Positions 8,384 through 11,189 of a stretch of DNA of 64,000 nt are shown here, piece after piece. The first letter of the stretch is position 1. The number at the start of each line of letters is the position of its first letter. The stretch is taken from positions 94-64,093 of the forward strand of contig CAITUY010000122.1 of the NCBI GenBank assembly GCA_903895695.1. Reading direction: 5' to 3'. Made by a program: the position numbers and the translations under genes. This DNA comes from an uncultured bacterium. GTDB lineage: Bacteria; Verrucomicrobiota; Kiritimatiellia; CAIKKV01; CAITUY01. The notes beneath the pieces were generated by a model. It saw only the letters and a program-made list of their open reading frames with translations, searched no databases and was not told where the DNA came from.

Positions 8384-8502
8384 CCCCCTCACACAACGGA
8401 AGCCATTGTTGTTGTTCGTGTTCCCCGGCCCGTTGTTGTTCCGGTAGGCGCACCGCAGGTTGTCCGTGTTGTTGTTCCACGTGCCGCCCCGCAGGACGCG
8501 TC
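8384..8502 (-). repeat. DGR template repeat (TR)
   Basis: 8384-8500 aligns without gaps to VR 9999-10115 (offset 1615). The 18 mismatches are all plus-strand T in the TR, which is A on the coding strand. In the target frame the TR reads [39 protein letters not shown] and is rich in AAC codons. Confidence 0.92.
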
Positions 8503-9573
8503 CGCTATTCCCGCCGAACCTAGAATTCCGTCAATCTGACCTCTGATCCTCTCGACAGCCGTTCCCGAATCCGCCTCCATCGCATGCCCGCGCCAACTGT
8601 ACCACCGTTGCGACAGACTGCGTGGCGACAAGGCGCCTCTCGCGCATTCCCTTGCACACCACACCAACCGCCTCCGGGCCGCTCTGACATTCGGCGCGAC
8701 AAGTCGCCGCCGATTCGGCCAGACCCTCTGCCCCAGAAACGTCAATCCATCCCTCGTTTGGTATGTCCTCGACTTGCGTTCGTTCAGACGCAATCTCATC
8801 TCTGCCAATTCCCCTTGGATCGCCGCCCGCCATTCCGTCAACTGCCGCCGTTCCTCACCAAATAGTACGAAGTCGTCCACATACCGAAGATATCCAGGAC
8901 ACCGCAACGTTTCTTTGACCCAGTGGTCGAAGTCGGAAAGATACACGCACCCAAACCACTGACTGGTCAGGTTACCGATAGGCAATCCCACCCGAACGGC
9001 GCCGGCAACCGCCAGATCGTCGCCGGGAAACACCGTGCAGACCGACTCCTGCGGATTACTCGCGTCGACAATCGTGTCCAGCAACCACAGTGTCTCGCGG
9101 CATCCGATCGTCCGCCGTAGCGTGGTCTTCAGAATGCCGTGGTCCATGCTCGGAAAGTACTTCCGAATGTCGCACTTGAGTGCGTACGGAAAACGGCGCG
9201 CGTAATGCTGGCATCGGCGAATCGCCGCGTGCGTCCCCTTGCCCTCCCGATTGGAGTACAGATCGAAAATCATTTTCTGCTCGAATAACGGCATGATGAC
9301 CCGGCACAGGGCGTGGTGCACCACCCGGTCGCGAAACGGCGCGGCGCTGATCATGCGGGTCTTCGGCCGAGTGATCGTCCTGACGCTGTAACCGCCTGGC
9401 CGATAAGTCCGTTCCGACAACTCGCGCCGCAAGGCCATCAACTCGCTCTCCAGGTTCGTGTTGAAACGCCCCACCACGTCGGCAAAGCGCTTACCGCGGC
9501 TCGCCAGGCGAGCCGCGGCCAACAGGTTGTCGAACGCGCAAATCCGTTCGTACAAATGGTTGTGGGTCTCCAT
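8389..9573 (-). CDS. DGR reverse transcriptase
   Basis: 394 aa. RT motifs are present: ISAAPFRDRVVHHAL, the YVDD catalytic box (YLRYVDDFVLF) and the DGR hallmark LPIGNLTSQWF. The ATG at 9573 abuts the avd stop at 9574. The last ~37 codons (...CGAARGTTTRTTCGAPTGTTTGRGTRTTTMASVV) are the TR read in another frame. Confidence 0.92.
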   Translation of the reverse strand: METHNHLYERICAFDNLLAAARLASRGKRFADVVGRFNTNLESELMALRRELSERTYRPGGYSVRTITRPKTRMISAAPFRDRVVHHALCRVIMPLFEQKMIFDLYSNREGKGTHAAIRRCQHYARRFPYALKCDIRKYFPSMDHGILKTTLRRTIGCRETLWLLDTIVDASNPQESVCTVFPGDDLAVAGAVRVGLPIGNLTSQWFGCVYLSDFDHWVKETLRCPGYLRYVDDFVLFGEERRQLTEWRAAIQGELAEMRLRLNERKSRTYQTRDGLTFLGQRVWPNRRRLVAPNVRAARRRLVWCARECARGALSPRSLSQRWYSWRGHAMEADSGTAVERIRGQIDGILGSAGIADASCGAARGTTTRTTCGAPTGTTTGRGTRTTTMASVV

Positions 9574-9936
9574 TCAACCTTTCGTTTCCGGCCGTTCGGT
9601 ACCACATGCATGCTTGAGCCAACCGCCGATCATACGCCCAACATCATTCAACTTCTCGGCAATGGTTCCATACCGTTGCGTGTTCAGCAGTTTCAGGTCA
9701 TGCGCCAGCCTAACGAGATGCCGTGTCACCTCAATGCCCATGTTGGCATCCGCAAGGTACTGCCGCTTGTCTTTGCTGTAGTAGGCCCGCACGCAGCACT
9801 CCTGAATGTCCAACAGCTTGATTTCAATCCTGTCGCCCAAAACGAACTTCTGATCCCGCGGGAACTTCGCCAAGACCGGAACGACGTAAAGCATCAGGTC
9901 ATGCAACCGTGTAAGGACATTGTCGGAATCAGCCAT
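9574..9936 (-). CDS. avd: DGR accessory variability determinant (Avd; four-helix-bundle, 23S rRNA intervening-sequence protein family)
   Basis: 120 aa. LAKFPRDQKFVLGDRIEIKLLDIQECCVRAYY...LVRLAHDLKLL...YGTIAEKLNDVGRMIGGWLKH is the typical Avd pattern. It is located between the target and the RT. Confidence 0.85.
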   Translation of the reverse strand: MADSDNVLTRLHDLMLYVVPVLAKFPRDQKFVLGDRIEIKLLDIQECCVRAYYSKDKRQYLADANMGIEVTRHLVRLAHDLKLLNTQRYGTIAEKLNDVGRMIGGWLKHACGTERPETKG

Positions 9937-9992
9937 CTGAAACTATCCTCAGACGAAAATCGAAAAAGGGTAAAGAAGACAGAGCAAAAAGA

Positions 9993-11189
9993 TCAAAGCC
10001 CCCTCACACAACGGAAGCCATAGCCGTAGTACGAGCCCCCCGGCCCGTCGGCGTTCCGGCAGGCGCACCGCAGGTTGACCGAGTAGTCGTACCACGCGCC
10101 GCCCCGCAGGACGCGGCTTCCAACGGTCGCGGGGCCTTTCGGGTTATCGCCCGCTTCGGCCCACCCATAGTACGTGCTGTCATACCAGTCCCAACACCAC
10201 TCCCAGACATTGCCGGCCATGTCGTACAGCCCGCAACCATTCGCCATGTCCGGTCCGGCAGGTGTCTGCGCGCCGTTGTAGTAACCGCAGGGTGTGGTCC
10301 CCGGTGATCCACTCTCGTACGGATCGCCGCTGCCTGAATAGTTGGCATTGCTCCCGCCAATGGTGTCACCCCACGGATAGCGCTTTCCCGACAGACCGCC
10401 TCGGGCCGCCTTTTCCCACTCAGCCTCGGTCGGTAGACGGTACCCGTTGGCCGTCCATTTGACGCAGGCGTTGGATAGGTTCAGATTGCTGCTTCGGTAG
10501 ACGGTGCTCTGATCGGCACTGGTGTAGTAGACGGGCGTCAGACCTTCCTTCTCGGACCTCGCGTTGCACCACTTGACTGCATCAAACCAGTTCATGGTTT
10601 GAGCCGGGTGATCGGCGGCGCGACCGGAACCGTTGCTCAGATCGTACCCGTGCGAAGCCGACCAGGTCCTGACGTCAGTCCACAACGCGTACGACACTTC
10701 GAACTTATCCATGTAGAATGCGGTAACTTGCACGGTATGGACTGGTCTTTCGTTGTCGTTGCCGTCGCCGGGATTCGTGCCCATCAGGAACGGTCCCGGC
10801 GGAATGTAGGCCATGTTGAGGGGCGGCACGGGCGTGACGCCATCGCTGGAAATAACCCGCACACGGGCCGTATCCACATACTGCCCGTTCCAGTCCAAGC
10901 CGGCGTTCCAGACAATGTGCTTGTTCGATCCGGGCGTGATCCCGGTCCCCACGTCGCCCGACAAATTGACGACGGGGATGCGATAGGTGACGCCTCCATC
11001 GGCGGAGATCAGCACCTGTACCGACTGCGCATGCCCGGTGGCATCGGTGACATCGTAATAGATATCGACCTGTTTGGTGCCGGTCCGCTGGGACGCGTGC
11101 ACGTTCGACACGACTGGCGTGGCCCAGAGAGAGCCGCACGCCAAGGTCAATCCCGCCGCCAACACTCCCGCCAACCTTAACTTGCTCAT
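9993..11189 (-). CDS. DGR target protein: signal peptide, N-terminal beta-sandwich region, and FGE-sulfatase/C-type-lectin-fold domain ending in the VR
   Basis: ORF 9993..11267. The start was set at ATG 11189 (MSKLRLAGVLAAGLTLACGSLWA). The FGE-type domain is shown by YRLPTEAEWEKAARGG...YPWGD...LYDMAGNVWEWCWDWY...RVLRGGAWY. The C-terminal 39 aa form the VR (AWYDYSVNLRCACRNADGPGGSYYGYGFRCVRGL). Confidence 0.9.
   Translation of the reverse strand: MSKLRLAGVLAAGLTLACGSLWATPVVSNVHASQRTGTKQVDIYYDVTDATGHAQSVQVLISADGGVTYRIPVVNLSGDVGTGITPGSNKHIVWNAGLDWNGQYVDTARVRVISSDGVTPVPPLNMAYIPPGPFLMGTNPGDGNDNERPVHTVQVTAFYMDKFEVSYALWTDVRTWSASHGYDLSNGSGRAADHPAQTMNWFDAVKWCNARSEKEGLTPVYYTSADQSTVYRSSNLNLSNACVKWTANGYRLPTEAEWEKAARGGLSGKRYPWGDTIGGSNANYSGSGDPYESGSPGTTPCGYYNGAQTPAGPDMANGCGLYDMAGNVWEWCWDWYDSTYYGWAEAGDNPKGPATVGSRVLRGGAWYDYSVNLRCACRNADGPGGSYYGYGFRCVRGL
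9999..10117 (-). repeat. DGR variable repeat (VR) at the 3' end of the target gene
   Basis: This is the counterpart of TR 8384-8502. The 3' 23 nt (9999-10021) are identical to the TR (an IMH-like invariant end, ...GGCTTCCGTTGTGTGAGGGGG on the coding strand). Homology ends 4 nt upstream of the target stop codon. Confidence 0.92.

What the first reader, a model, noticed from the sequence alone, without database searches (positions are those of the whole stretch)
8384..11189. Complete diversity-generating retroelement with strictly adenine-specific TR/VR divergence
A gap-free 117-bp alignment exists between TR 8384-8500 and VR 9999-10115 (offset 1615). I counted 18 mismatches by hand, at TR positions 8407, 8409, 8410, 8413, 8416, 8419, 8421, 8422, 8434, 8436, 8437, 8445, 8463, 8467, 8470, 8473, 8476 and 8482. 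Every one is a plus-strand T in the TR, which is an A on the transcribed strand. None is at any other base.

In the target frame the TR reads ...[35 protein letters not shown], a run of AAC codons. The VR reads ...GGAWYDYSVNLRCACRNADGPGGSYYGYGFRCVRGL. The cassette also has an Avd gene and an RT carrying IGNLTSQ and YVDD.

The variable residues sit at the C-terminus of a signal-peptide protein with an FGE-sulfatase/C-type-lectin fold. That makes it a diversifying surface or secreted ligand-binding protein in what otherwise looks like a glycan-degrading genome. DGRs are a known class; this instance appears intact and recently active.
Basis: partly seen in the sequence, partly recalled or inferred. 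Interest (0 to 1): 0.8.

Follow-up and report, generated by a model that had tools for sequence, protein, structure and literature searches.

The report
Complete, ordinary diversity-generating retroelement
This is a genuine, complete diversity-generating retroelement of a common type: a reverse transcriptase copies a template with errors at adenines and so rewrites the binding tip of a secreted lectin-like protein.

Summary
TR 8384-8500 and VR 9999-10115 align without gaps over 117 nt. All 18 mismatches fall on the 30 template adenines of the coding (minus) strand; chance probability is about 1e-13.

The cassette has these parts:
- Avd, which passes NCBI's DGR-Avd model;
- an RT whose closest solved structure is Bordetella phage bRT, carrying IGNLTSQ and YVDD;
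- the TR.

This is architecture B2 (avd-RT-TR), target category b, of the 2018 DGR survey. The RT and the target each have thousands of close homologs.

Covariation in 10 relatives supports it strongly. It matches the cryo-EM-defined Bordetella DGR RNA element for element, and no Rfam family covers it.

The cassette lies on a 6.4-kb integrase-less insertion flanked by 30-bp direct repeats. Two relatives show the empty site.

Current activity is unproven: five metagenome contigs carry the identical VR.

Verdict: a real new member of a known kind, of low to moderate interest.

The parts
9993..11189 (-). Target (variable protein) gene, 398 aa. It comprises a signal-like helix (aa 2-20), a beta-sandwich (about aa 26-115) and an FGE-sulfatase/C-type-lectin fold (aa 126-396).
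   Evidence: ORF. Pfam PF03781, E 2.8e-54. AlphaFold model pLDDT 77.9. Foldseek hits to FGE and TvpA 2y3c. This exact protein is on record as a called gene.
9999..10115 (-). Variable repeat (VR). It encodes the last 39 residues but one of the target; the stop codon is at 9993-9995.
   Evidence: Fourteen codons differ from the TR and all changes are nonsynonymous. In 40 homologs, column entropy peaks at the codons that hold TR adenines.
9574..9936 (-). avd, the accessory variability determinant (120 aa)
   Evidence: Pfam bAvd, E 2.3e-21. NCBIfam NF033474 equivalog, 106.8 bits, above the cut-off of 80.
8389..9573 (-). DGR reverse transcriptase ORF (394 aa). The conserved core ends near 8506. The last 37 codons read through the TR because the usual stop codon is missing.
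   Evidence: Six relatives stop at LGATGT*, 7-9 nt before their TR. The window and L006 lack that stop.
8510..8520 (-). Upstream strand of the long-range duplex H1. It lies inside the RT 3' codons and pairs with 8298-8308.
   Evidence: RNAalifold. Five of its 9 pairs change on both sides and 95.6% of cells are paired. Coordinates.
8384..8500 (-). Template repeat (TR). It has 30 adenines, all at codon positions 1 or 2: 11 AAC, 1 AAT, 3 ACG, and one each of GAC, TAC and AGG.
8221..8383 (-). Structured 3' RNA, the counterpart of the Bordetella 'spacer'. Its parts are:
- a variable hairpin plus the H3/H4 stem-loop (8320-8378);
- the H2 strand 8310-8318, which pairs with the TR 3' end at 8379-8387;
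- the H1 strand 8298-8308;
- the H5 hairpin (8269-8296);
- conserved single-stranded GGAACGAAGACGG (8261-8273, overlapping the 3' strand of H5);
- the long H6/H7 stem-loop (8221-8251).
   Evidence: Alignments and structure. Covariation: 52 pairs, 95.1% paired against 41-50% in slid controls, 27 pairs with changes on both sides, 0 of 500 shuffles as high. Coordinates. Covariance model R1 scores 151 bits here.
8309..8309 (-). Conserved adenosine between the H2 and H1 strands; candidate priming nucleotide (inferred)
   Evidence: It is A in 9 of 10 relatives. Its position corresponds to Sp A56 of the Bordetella DGR RNA (bioRxiv 10.1101/2023.10.23.563531).
11284..11313 (.). Direct repeat copy at the hemW-proximal end of the 6.4-kb insertion that carries the DGR. 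It forms the last 10 codons of hemW.
4836..4865 (.). Direct repeat copy at the far end of the insertion (29 of 30 identical). It is followed by the ancestral hemW stop codon and the spacer to fumA.
   Evidence: Empty sites in L169 and L171.
5664..8180 (-). 838-aa secreted protein with FxFDTR repeats, a GHSAGG hydrolase-like core and bacterial TSP3 repeats. It is cargo next to the DGR. It is not diversified and is not shown to be part of the mechanism.
   Evidence: Pfam TSP3_bac. A homolog, 49% identical over the full length, lies directly downstream of the DGR in L006. No VR lies in it.

Best explanation
This is an intact chromosomal diversity-generating retroelement of architecture target-avd-RT-TR. 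The steps below are marked as shown here or inferred.

1. Inferred: the minus-strand operon is transcribed through the RT gene, the TR and about 165 nt of downstream RNA.
2. Shown by covariation: the RNA folds so that the TR 3' end (8379-8387) pairs with 8310-8318. Right beside it, a segment just upstream of the TR (8510-8520) pairs with 8298-8308. Three conserved stem-loops and one conserved single-stranded stretch complete the fold.
3. Inferred by element-for-element analogy with the Bordetella phage bRT-Avd-RNA structure: the RT-Avd complex binds this RNA and primes cDNA from a conserved adenosine at or near 8309. It copies the TR from about 8388 towards 8500, inserting random nucleotides opposite the 30 template adenines. 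It stops at the upstream duplex.
4. Shown only as the outcome: the cDNA replaces the VR (9999-10115). This rewrites up to 18 codons in the C-terminal ligand-binding face of a secreted FGE/C-type-lectin-fold protein. Up to about 4e17 protein variants are possible and none contains a stop codon.

The protein lacks the catalytic cysteines of formylglycine-generating enzymes. It is therefore a binding protein, not an enzyme. Its ligand is unknown.
For: - TR and VR differ at 18 positions and all are TR adenines; P = 1.3e-13.
- All 30 adenines sit at codon positions 1 or 2. All 14 changed codons are nonsynonymous and no stop codon can arise.
- The RT is homologous to bRT 8ub7 (E 3e-42). That is far better than to group II intron RTs (1e-15). 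D135, IGNLTSQ and YVDD are invariant.
- Avd passes the NCBIfam DGR-Avd equivalog.
- The target has the FGE/TvpA fold. The FGE cysteine pair is absent in the alignment.
- In 40 homologs of the target, variability concentrates at the adenine-templated codons.
- The RNA structure has 52 pairs, 95% of cells paired and 27 pairs with double changes. Slid controls give 41-50% paired and 0 of 500 shuffles reach the observed values.
- The order of RNA elements matches the Bordetella DGR RNA.
- The nearest relative, L006 (RT 77% identical), has the same 1615-nt TR-VR spacing and 17 adenine-only mismatches.
- Relatives share the order VR-avd-RT-TR. This is architecture B2 in PMC5758913.
Against: - There is no direct evidence of present activity. 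Five metagenome contigs carry the identical VR, but they are clonal copies.
- No stable hairpin lies downstream of the VR. The Bordetella element has a GC-rich one (-3.1 kcal/mol, z = 0.29).
- TR and VR are identical through their last 22 nt. No IMH/IMH*-type marker is visible apart from the end of homology.
- The RT ORF has lost its usual stop codon and carries a 37-residue tail encoded by the TR.
- The 3' RNA of the window alone does not fold better than shuffled sequence (z = -0.63). Its support comes from covariation only.
Confidence: 0.93

Rival explanations
1. The cassette is intact in sequence but no longer diversifies. On this reading the VR is a frozen product of past retrohoming, kept by selection for one binding specificity.
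For: - The VR is identical in all five other assemblies that carry this Avd.
- Contigs assemble straight through the VR and the TR.
- The RT has lost its normal stop codon.
- No hairpin lies downstream of the VR.
Against: - Those contigs are 100% identical to the window over up to 2955 nt. They are the same clone and carry no information about minor variants.
- There are zero mismatches at the 87 non-adenine positions. All ORFs are intact and the RNA is conserved.
- L006 shares the stop-less RT and still shows 17 adenine-only differences. The RT tail is therefore compatible with retrohoming.
Confidence: 0.25
2. The TR-VR pair is an ordinary duplicated gene fragment whose differences fall on adenines by chance or by a general mutational bias. 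On this reading it has nothing to do with the neighbouring RT.
For: None beyond the existence of a repeat.
Against: - P = 1.3e-13 for 18 of 18 mismatches on adenines.
- The substitutions go to C, A and G on the plus strand and not to one base.
- The same pattern appears next to homologous RTs in many relatives.
Confidence: 0.01
3. The RT belongs to another retroelement class (group II intron, retron or defence-associated RT), and the Avd-like gene is a coincidental neighbour.
For: Weak, sub-threshold similarity to group II intron maturase (104.6 bits against a cut-off of 300) and to Drt and retron models.
Against: - No curated cut-off is reached.
- No intron RNA or any other Rfam family is found in the window.
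- bRT is the best solved relative.
- The SQ-type motif 4 (IGNLTSQ) is invariant.
- Avd passes its equivalog model.
Confidence: 0.01

Closest known systems
Bordetella phage BPP-1 DGR (mtd-avd-TR-brt) and its DGR RNA, as resolved by cryo-EM (Handa et al., bioRxiv 10.1101/2023.10.23.563531)
   Same: - The RT is homologous to bRT over its whole core, and an Avd is present.
- TR-VR differences are adenine-only, in AAY-rich codons at the C-terminus of a C-type-lectin-fold protein.
- The RNA elements downstream of the TR come in the same order: stem-loop(s) just after the TR, a TR:spacer duplex ending at a conserved A, an adjacent upstream:spacer duplex, a hairpin followed by conserved A-rich single strand, and a long interrupted stem-loop.
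   Different: - The TR lies after the RT, not between avd and the RT, so RT codons supply the upstream duplex strand instead of avd codons.
- The element is chromosomal and not phage-borne. The nearest viral RTs are at most 39% identical.
- The target has the FGE-type fold rather than the Mtd type.
- No GC-rich hairpin follows the VR, and no IMH/IMH* mismatches are seen.
- The RNA does not match Rfam RT-10, the Bordetella motif.
Treponema denticola DGR and its variable protein TvpA (PDB 2y3c)
   Same: [quoted passage not shown]
- Sequence match E 2.9e-22. Structural match TM 0.70 normalised to TvpA.
   Different: - The window protein has an extra N-terminal beta-sandwich.
- According to PMC5758913, the Treponema element belongs to the clade with architecture C (HRDC accessory gene). 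The window element has architecture B2 with avd.
Architecture B2 / target category b DGRs of Wu et al. 2018 (PMC5758913), including relatives in Verrucomicrobiota, Cyanobacteria, Chlorobi and Bacteroidota
   Same: - The core order avd-RT-TR.
- A CLec1-type VR at the C-terminus of an FGE-sulfatase domain, the largest target category (19% of DGRs), some with N-terminal extensions of unknown function.
- Relatives fetched here have the same layout.
   Different: Nothing of kind. This is a further member. The nearest genome relatives are 77% (unclassified MAG) and 64-68% (Limisphaerales, Pedosphaera) identical in the RT.
Rfam RT-19 and RT-10 motifs (Weinberg et al. 2017, PMC5737381)
   Same: They are structured RNAs next to RT genes, and RT-10 was proposed to be part of the Bordetella DGR. 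The terminal hairpin at 8222-8252 gives a faint RT-19 match.
   Different: The RT-19 match scores 16.4 bits against a gathering score of 78.3, with E = 4.2. It is not a member. No Rfam family reaches threshold in the window or in 13 related loci.

Membership tests
Diversity-generating retroelement (DGR) | A template/variable repeat pair whose differences are confined to template adenines | tested here: met
   18 of 18 mismatches fall on TR adenines, with 0 at the 87 other positions. P = 1.3e-13.
Diversity-generating retroelement (DGR) | An RT of the DGR clade with catalytic YxDD and the SQ-type motif 4 ([LIV]GxxxSQ) | tested here: met
   IGNLTSQ (aa 199-205) and YVDD (aa 231-234) are invariant in 25 homologs. 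The best solved relative is bRT 8ub7, E 3e-42. No phylogenetic tree was built.
Diversity-generating retroelement (DGR) | The VR lies inside a protein-coding gene, with template adenines placed so that changes are nonsynonymous (AAY codons) | tested here: met
   The VR is the C-terminus of the 398-aa target. The 30 adenines are all at codon positions 1 or 2, with 11 AAC and 1 AAT codons.
Diversity-generating retroelement (DGR) | Accessory protein Avd (present in most DGRs, not all) | tested here: met
   Pfam bAvd. NCBIfam NF033474, 106.8 bits against a cut-off of 80.
Diversity-generating retroelement (DGR) | Cis-acting RNA around the TR: a template:primer duplex, an upstream:downstream duplex, and protein-binding stem-loops | tested here: met
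   The structure is supported by covariation in 10 sequences. Its function in priming is not testable with these tools.
Diversity-generating retroelement (DGR) | A target-site marker at the VR 3' end (IMH differing from IMH*), with a downstream hairpin or cruciform as in BPP-1 | tested here: not met
   TR and VR are identical over their last 22 nt and diverge immediately after GGGGG. No stable hairpin lies in the 60 nt after the VR. This feature is defined for the Bordetella element and is not required for DGR membership in surveys.
Diversity-generating retroelement (DGR) | Ongoing mutagenic retrohoming, seen as VR polymorphism at adenine-templated sites within a population | tested here: inconclusive
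   Five further contigs carry the same VR, but they are 100% identical clonal copies. Read-level data are not available.
Wu et al. 2018 architecture B2 (avd-RT-TR) | The order of avd, the RT and the TR on one strand | tested here: met
   On the minus strand: avd 9936-9574, RT 9573-8389, TR 8500-8384. Definition from PMC5758913.
Formylglycine-generating enzyme (catalytically active FGE) | The conserved pair of catalytic cysteines near the C-terminus | tested here: not met
   In the alignment to FGE 6muj, the LC..SYC segment aligns to AWY-D-YSVN within the VR and neither cysteine is present. The protein shares the fold only.
Rfam RT-10 / RT-19 RNA motifs | A score at or above the family gathering threshold | tested here: not met
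   No match at gathering level. RT-19 scores 16.4 bits against 78.3, and RT-10 is not listed even at E <= 10.

The most novel reading that the evidence does not exclude
The DGR is not a stand-alone cassette. On this reading it is part of a small integrase-less mobile module: variable lectin, avd, RT, TR and its RNA, and an 838-aa secreted hydrolase-like TSP3-repeat protein, here joined by vapBC. The module would insert site-specifically, here into the last 30 bp of hemW, and the invariant large protein would work together with the diversified lectin, for example as the effector of a retargetable binder.
Probability: 0.12. Interest if true: 0.5.

Novelty: new member of a known kind. Interest (0 to 1): 0.25.

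Why it matters
As a DGR it adds little. The RT clade, the target family and the cassette order are all well populated and already surveyed.

It has some value as a worked example. In an avd-RT-TR element of a PVC-type glycan degrader, covariation alone recovers the whole set of RNA elements that cryo-EM defined in the Bordetella phage element, including a candidate priming adenosine. This supports the claim that the priming and stop mechanism is conserved across distant DGRs. It also gives a family-specific RNA model that Rfam lacks.

The clean insertion, with an empty site in relatives, shows a DGR arriving as cargo on a small island without a recombinase of its own. That bears on how DGRs spread.

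Tried and rejected
- Population test of VR diversification. Exact-protein look-ups found five more contigs, but all are 100% identical to the window, so they are uninformative. Cluster look-ups showed no VR variants of the target protein in its 90% cluster, which has one member.
- Further VRs in the window: none, with adenines as wildcards.
- Rfam: nothing at gathering level in the window or in 13 related loci. Only noise appears at E <= 10.
- Single-sequence folding of the 3' region. It is not better than shuffles, so the structure claim rests on covariation only.
- Hairpin downstream of the VR: none.
- RNAalifold without the upstream segment proposed an alternative pairing of the TR 3' end with the H1 strand. 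I rejected it as the main conformer because it shows no double-sided changes, whereas H1 has five.
- Integrase or transposase in the island. Pfam shows only PIN, VapB, TSP3 and the DGR genes.
- Flanking repeats around the L006 module: none found.
- Taxonomy. Fumarase homologs carry only '[bacterium]' labels and one Kiritimatiellia label at 68% identity. The window's own species is not among the GTDB representatives hit by the RT. The lineage is therefore only 'PVC-like, probably Kiritimatiellia or Verrucomicrobiota'.
- Phage origin. The closest IMG/VR RTs are at most 39% identical, and the window has no phage genes among the ORFs scanned.
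Full report
**1. The observation**

At an offset of 1615 nt, window 8384-8500 and 9999-10115 align without gaps over 117 nt. 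Every one is a plus-strand T in the 8384-8500 copy. The genes here are on the minus strand, so these are adenines of the coding strand.

The match ends sharply at both ends. It is also the longest repeat in the window (D1).

The template copy has 30 adenines among 117 positions. The chance that all 18 mismatches fall on them is 1.3e-13.

**2. Anatomy of the cassette**

On the minus strand the order is as follows:
- target gene, 11189-9993;
- avd, 9936-9574;
- reverse transcriptase, 9573-8389;
- template repeat, 8500-8384.

The target. It has one Pfam domain, FGE-sulfatase, covering aa 126-396 (E 2.8e-54). A model built on 40 homologs (pLDDT 77.9) shows an N-terminal helix at aa 2-20, consistent with a signal peptide. 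A beta-sandwich follows at aa 26-115, and then the FGE fold. Its best structural matches are formylglycine-generating enzymes and the Treponema denticola variable protein TvpA (2y3c, TM 0.70 normalised to the target chain). By sequence, TvpA matches at E 2.9e-22.

In the alignment to FGE, the two catalytic cysteines are not present. Their place is taken by VR residues. The protein therefore shares the fold but not the enzyme chemistry.

Avd. It matches Pfam bAvd and passes NCBI's equivalog model for DGR Avd (106.8 bits, cut-off 80).

The RT. It matches RVT_1. Its best solved relative is the Bordetella phage bRT (8ub7, E 3e-42), well ahead of a group II intron RT (1.2e-15). It reaches no curated cut-off for group II intron, retron or defence RTs. 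D135, IGNLTSQ (199-205) and YVDD (231-234) are invariant in an alignment of 25 homologs.

**3. The coding logic of TR and VR**

All 30 template adenines are at codon positions 1 or 2. The adenine-containing codons are 11 AAC, 1 AAT, 3 ACG, and one each of GAC, TAC and AGG.

Fourteen codons differ between TR and VR, and all changes are nonsynonymous. No substitution at an adenine can create a stop codon. The accessible repertoire is 4.0e17 proteins, or 1.15e18 DNA sequences.

In 40 homologs of the target (55-77% identical), column entropy in the last 40 residues is high at the adenine-templated codons. It is also high at two glycine positions between them. It is low at the scaffold positions R, G, G, W, L, R, C, A, R, P, G, F, R, C, V, R and G. 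The whole family is diversified at the same places.

**4.

About 190 nt downstream of the TR is strongly conserved in relatives whose RTs are only 64-77% identical. The structured part runs from 8383 to 8221. On a 10-sequence alignment, RNAalifold finds these elements:
- H1, a long-range duplex between a segment just upstream of the TR and a downstream segment;
- H2, a duplex between the TR 3' end and a downstream segment directly adjacent to H1;
- H3/H4, a stem-loop with the loop GUYCACGGAC;
- H5, a hairpin;
- H6/H7, a long interrupted stem-loop.

I counted the pairs on that alignment, leaving out the pairs predicted inside the TR. There are 52 pairs and 95.1% of cells are paired. When partners are slid by 1-3 columns, 41-50% are paired. 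Twenty-seven pairs show changes on both sides, and 0 of 500 shuffles reach any of the observed measures.

The structure was derived from these same sequences, which favours it. Even so, the number of double changes (66 cells against 7-17 in slid controls) is far beyond that bias.

In window coordinates:
- H1 is 8520-8510 with 8308-8298.
- H2 is 8387-8379 with 8318-8310.
- H3/H4 is 8358-8341 with 8336-8320.
- H5 is 8296-8289 with 8276-8269. The window row is shifted by one column in the alignment, so H5 is better supported than the count shows.
- H6/H7 is 8251-8221.
- A conserved single-stranded GGAACGAAGACGG lies at 8273-8261, overlapping the 3' strand of H5.

The window's 3' region alone does not fold better than shuffled sequence. 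The evidence is comparative only.

No Rfam family covers this RNA. Nothing reaches gathering level in the window or in 13 related loci. Only a 16-bit match of the terminal hairpin to RT-19 appears, far below threshold.

A covariance model built from the 10 sequences gives weak full-length hits next to more distant RT relatives. These lie in Bacteroidota, Poribacteria and Desantisbacteria loci. The same plan therefore extends beyond the subclade.

**5. How it most likely works**

The Bordetella DGR RNA has been resolved in complex with bRT-Avd (bioRxiv 10.1101/2023.10.23.563531). The elements described there, downstream of the TR, include:
1. A TR:spacer template:primer duplex that ends at the priming adenosine Sp A56.
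2. Two nucleotides later, a duplex between the spacer and a segment upstream of the TR (the 'cPRT Stop').
3. A short stem-loop followed by unpaired adenosines.
4. A long single-stranded 'Thumb Ring'.
5. A long interrupted bRT-binding stem-loop.
6. An Avd-binding RNA element. The survey part of the paper places putative Avd-binding stem-loops just downstream of the TR.

The same paper reports putative Avd-binding stem-loops and stop duplexes in 207 of 278 Avd-containing DGRs.

The window RNA has the same elements in the same order:
- hairpins just after the TR (8378-8320);
- H2;
- a conserved adenosine at 8309, which is A in 9 of 10 relatives;
- H1 immediately after;
- H5 followed by the conserved A-rich single strand;
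- H6/H7 with its internal loops.

I therefore infer the following. RT-Avd primes from the adenosine at or near 8309. It starts copying near 8388 and runs through the TR. It stops before the H1 duplex at 8510. The only difference of layout is that the TR follows the RT. The upstream strand of the stop duplex is therefore made of the last conserved RT codons instead of avd codons.

The priming nucleotide, the start site and the homing step are inferred. None is shown here.

**6. Features that differ from the Bordetella paradigm**

TR and VR are identical through their last 22 nt and diverge straight after GGGGG. There is no IMH/IMH*-type mismatch, and no stable hairpin in the 60 nt after the VR.

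The RT ORF has no stop codon before the TR and reads 37 further codons through it. Six relatives stop at ...LGATGT*, 7-9 nt before their TR. The window and its nearest relative L006 share a 3-nt gap in the alignment that removes this TGA. L006 nevertheless has 17 adenine-only TR/VR differences, so the tail is compatible with retrohoming. Other homologs also read into their TR, in various frames.

**7. Is it active now?**

The clean pattern argues that the VR was written from this TR recently relative to the neutral substitution rate. There are 18 changes at adenines and none at the 87 other positions.

Direct evidence is lacking. Five metagenome contigs carry the same Avd: three BUCK21-1 samples, SAMEA6872778-80, and two further assemblies. 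All have exactly the same VR. They are also 100% identical to the window over their whole length of up to 2955 nt, so they represent one clone.

The target's 90% cluster has a single member. I rate present activity as open.

**8. Relatives and classification**

The RT has at least 8000 homologs at E <= 1e-10. Most are 353-356 aa long.

The nearest genome relatives are an unclassified MAG (L006, 77%) and Verrucomicrobiota MAGs (Limisphaerales and Pedosphaera, 64-68%). Cyanobacteria, Chlorobi, Bacteroidota and others follow at about 45-55%. The order VR-avd-RT-TR recurs in them. IMG/VR relatives are at most 39% identical, so this subclade is cellular.

In the survey of Wu et al. (PMC5758913) this is architecture B2 (avd-RT-TR). 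The target belongs to category b, a CLec1 VR at the C-terminus of an FGE-sulfatase domain. That is the largest category, and some members have N-terminal extensions of unknown function.

The target family has at least 7700 homologs at E <= 1e-20. Many are about 400 aa with the same N-terminal domain, and several are labelled Verrucomicrobia or Verrucomicrobiales.

**9. Genomic context**

The window is chromosomal and rich in carbohydrate genes: GH123, GH2, GHL10, an FGGY kinase, GFO/IDH/MocA oxidoreductases and an MFS transporter.

Fumarase homologs give only a weak lineage hint: '[bacterium]' labels, and Kiritimatiellia at 68% identity.

The DGR lies on an insertion. A sharply bounded 30-nt direct repeat (29 of 30 identical) sits at 4836-4865 and 11284-11313. 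In two relatives, with fumarase 88% and 92% identical, the radical-SAM hemW-like gene is followed directly by fumA.

In the window the two genes are separated by 6418 bp. The repeat copy next to hemW supplies its last 10 codons and gains a new TAA stop from the insert. The far copy keeps the ancestral TGA stop and the spacer to fumA. GC content is 0.57-0.62 inside the insert and 0.65-0.68 outside.

The insert carries vapBC, an 838-aa secreted protein and the DGR. No recombinase was found.

The 838-aa protein has a full-length homolog (49% identical) directly downstream of the DGR in L006. There the flanks are different: a transketolase-like gene on one side and mreB on the other. Among the loci fetched it occurs only there.

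**10. Verdict**

The element should be extended to 8221-11189, plus the pairing segment inside the RT gene. It is a new member of a well-known and very common kind.

Interest is low to moderate. The mapped RNA and the clean insertion site are useful details, not surprises.

Noticed in passing
window 4836-4865 and 11284-11313; L169 8811-10888; L171 986-3044: The DGR sits on a 6418-bp insertion between hemW and fumA, flanked by a 30-bp direct repeat of the hemW 3' end. Two related genomes have the empty site, with hemW directly followed by fumA. The insert has lower GC and no integrase or transposase.
   Followed up: yes
window 5664-8180 (-); L006 5498-7915: An 838-aa secreted protein lies directly downstream of the DGR RNA. 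It has FxFDTR repeats, a GHSAGG hydrolase-like core and TSP3 repeats. It has a full-length homolog (49% identical) in the same position in the nearest relative L006, which sits in a different genomic context. The DGR and this gene seem to travel together.
   Followed up: partly
window 11440-11517 and 12443-12513, inside the hemW-like ORF 11280-12677 (-): Two near-perfect palindromes (30- and 31-nt arms) lie inside in-frame insertions of about 40 codons each. These make this hemW 465 aa long, against 381-386 aa in relatives L171 and L169. The exact 465-aa product is not on record as a called gene.
   Followed up: partly
window 8501-8509; alignment A4 columns 60-70: The RT lost its usual TGA stop through a 3-nt gap shared only with L006, so its ORF runs 37 codons into the TR. 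One relative (L009) instead reads into its TR in the target-like frame.
   Followed up: yes
window 4951-5596 (-): A vapB/vapC (antitoxin plus PIN toxin) pair lies at the fumA-proximal end of the insertion. It is absent from the L006 module.
   Followed up: partly
window 3217-3314: An inverted repeat with 31-nt arms, 90% complementary, built of AGTGAACAGTGAACGG-type units. It lies in the spacer between the formyltransferase gene and the fumarase beta gene.
   Followed up: no
window 49936-51183, 52496-53539, 60507-61715 (-): Three paralogous URO-D-family (uroporphyrinogen decarboxylase-like) genes are interspersed with an MFS transporter and glycoside hydrolase genes.
   Followed up: no
L016 7165-7325, L051 5255-5436, L060 817-999, L094 1559-1728, L144 2594-2786, L154 5167-5360: The covariance model of the TR-downstream RNA gives weak but full-length hits (30-40 bits) next to more distant DGR RTs. 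These are in Bacteroidota, Desantisbacteria and unclassified metagenome contigs. None was found in the cyanobacterial loci at E <= 0.01.
   Followed up: partly
L006 2103-2160 and 998-1027 / 1514-1543: In the nearest relative, a perfect 29-nt tandem duplication lies just upstream of the target gene. A 30-nt repeat (90% identical) brackets a 516-bp segment that holds a small ORF.
   Followed up: no
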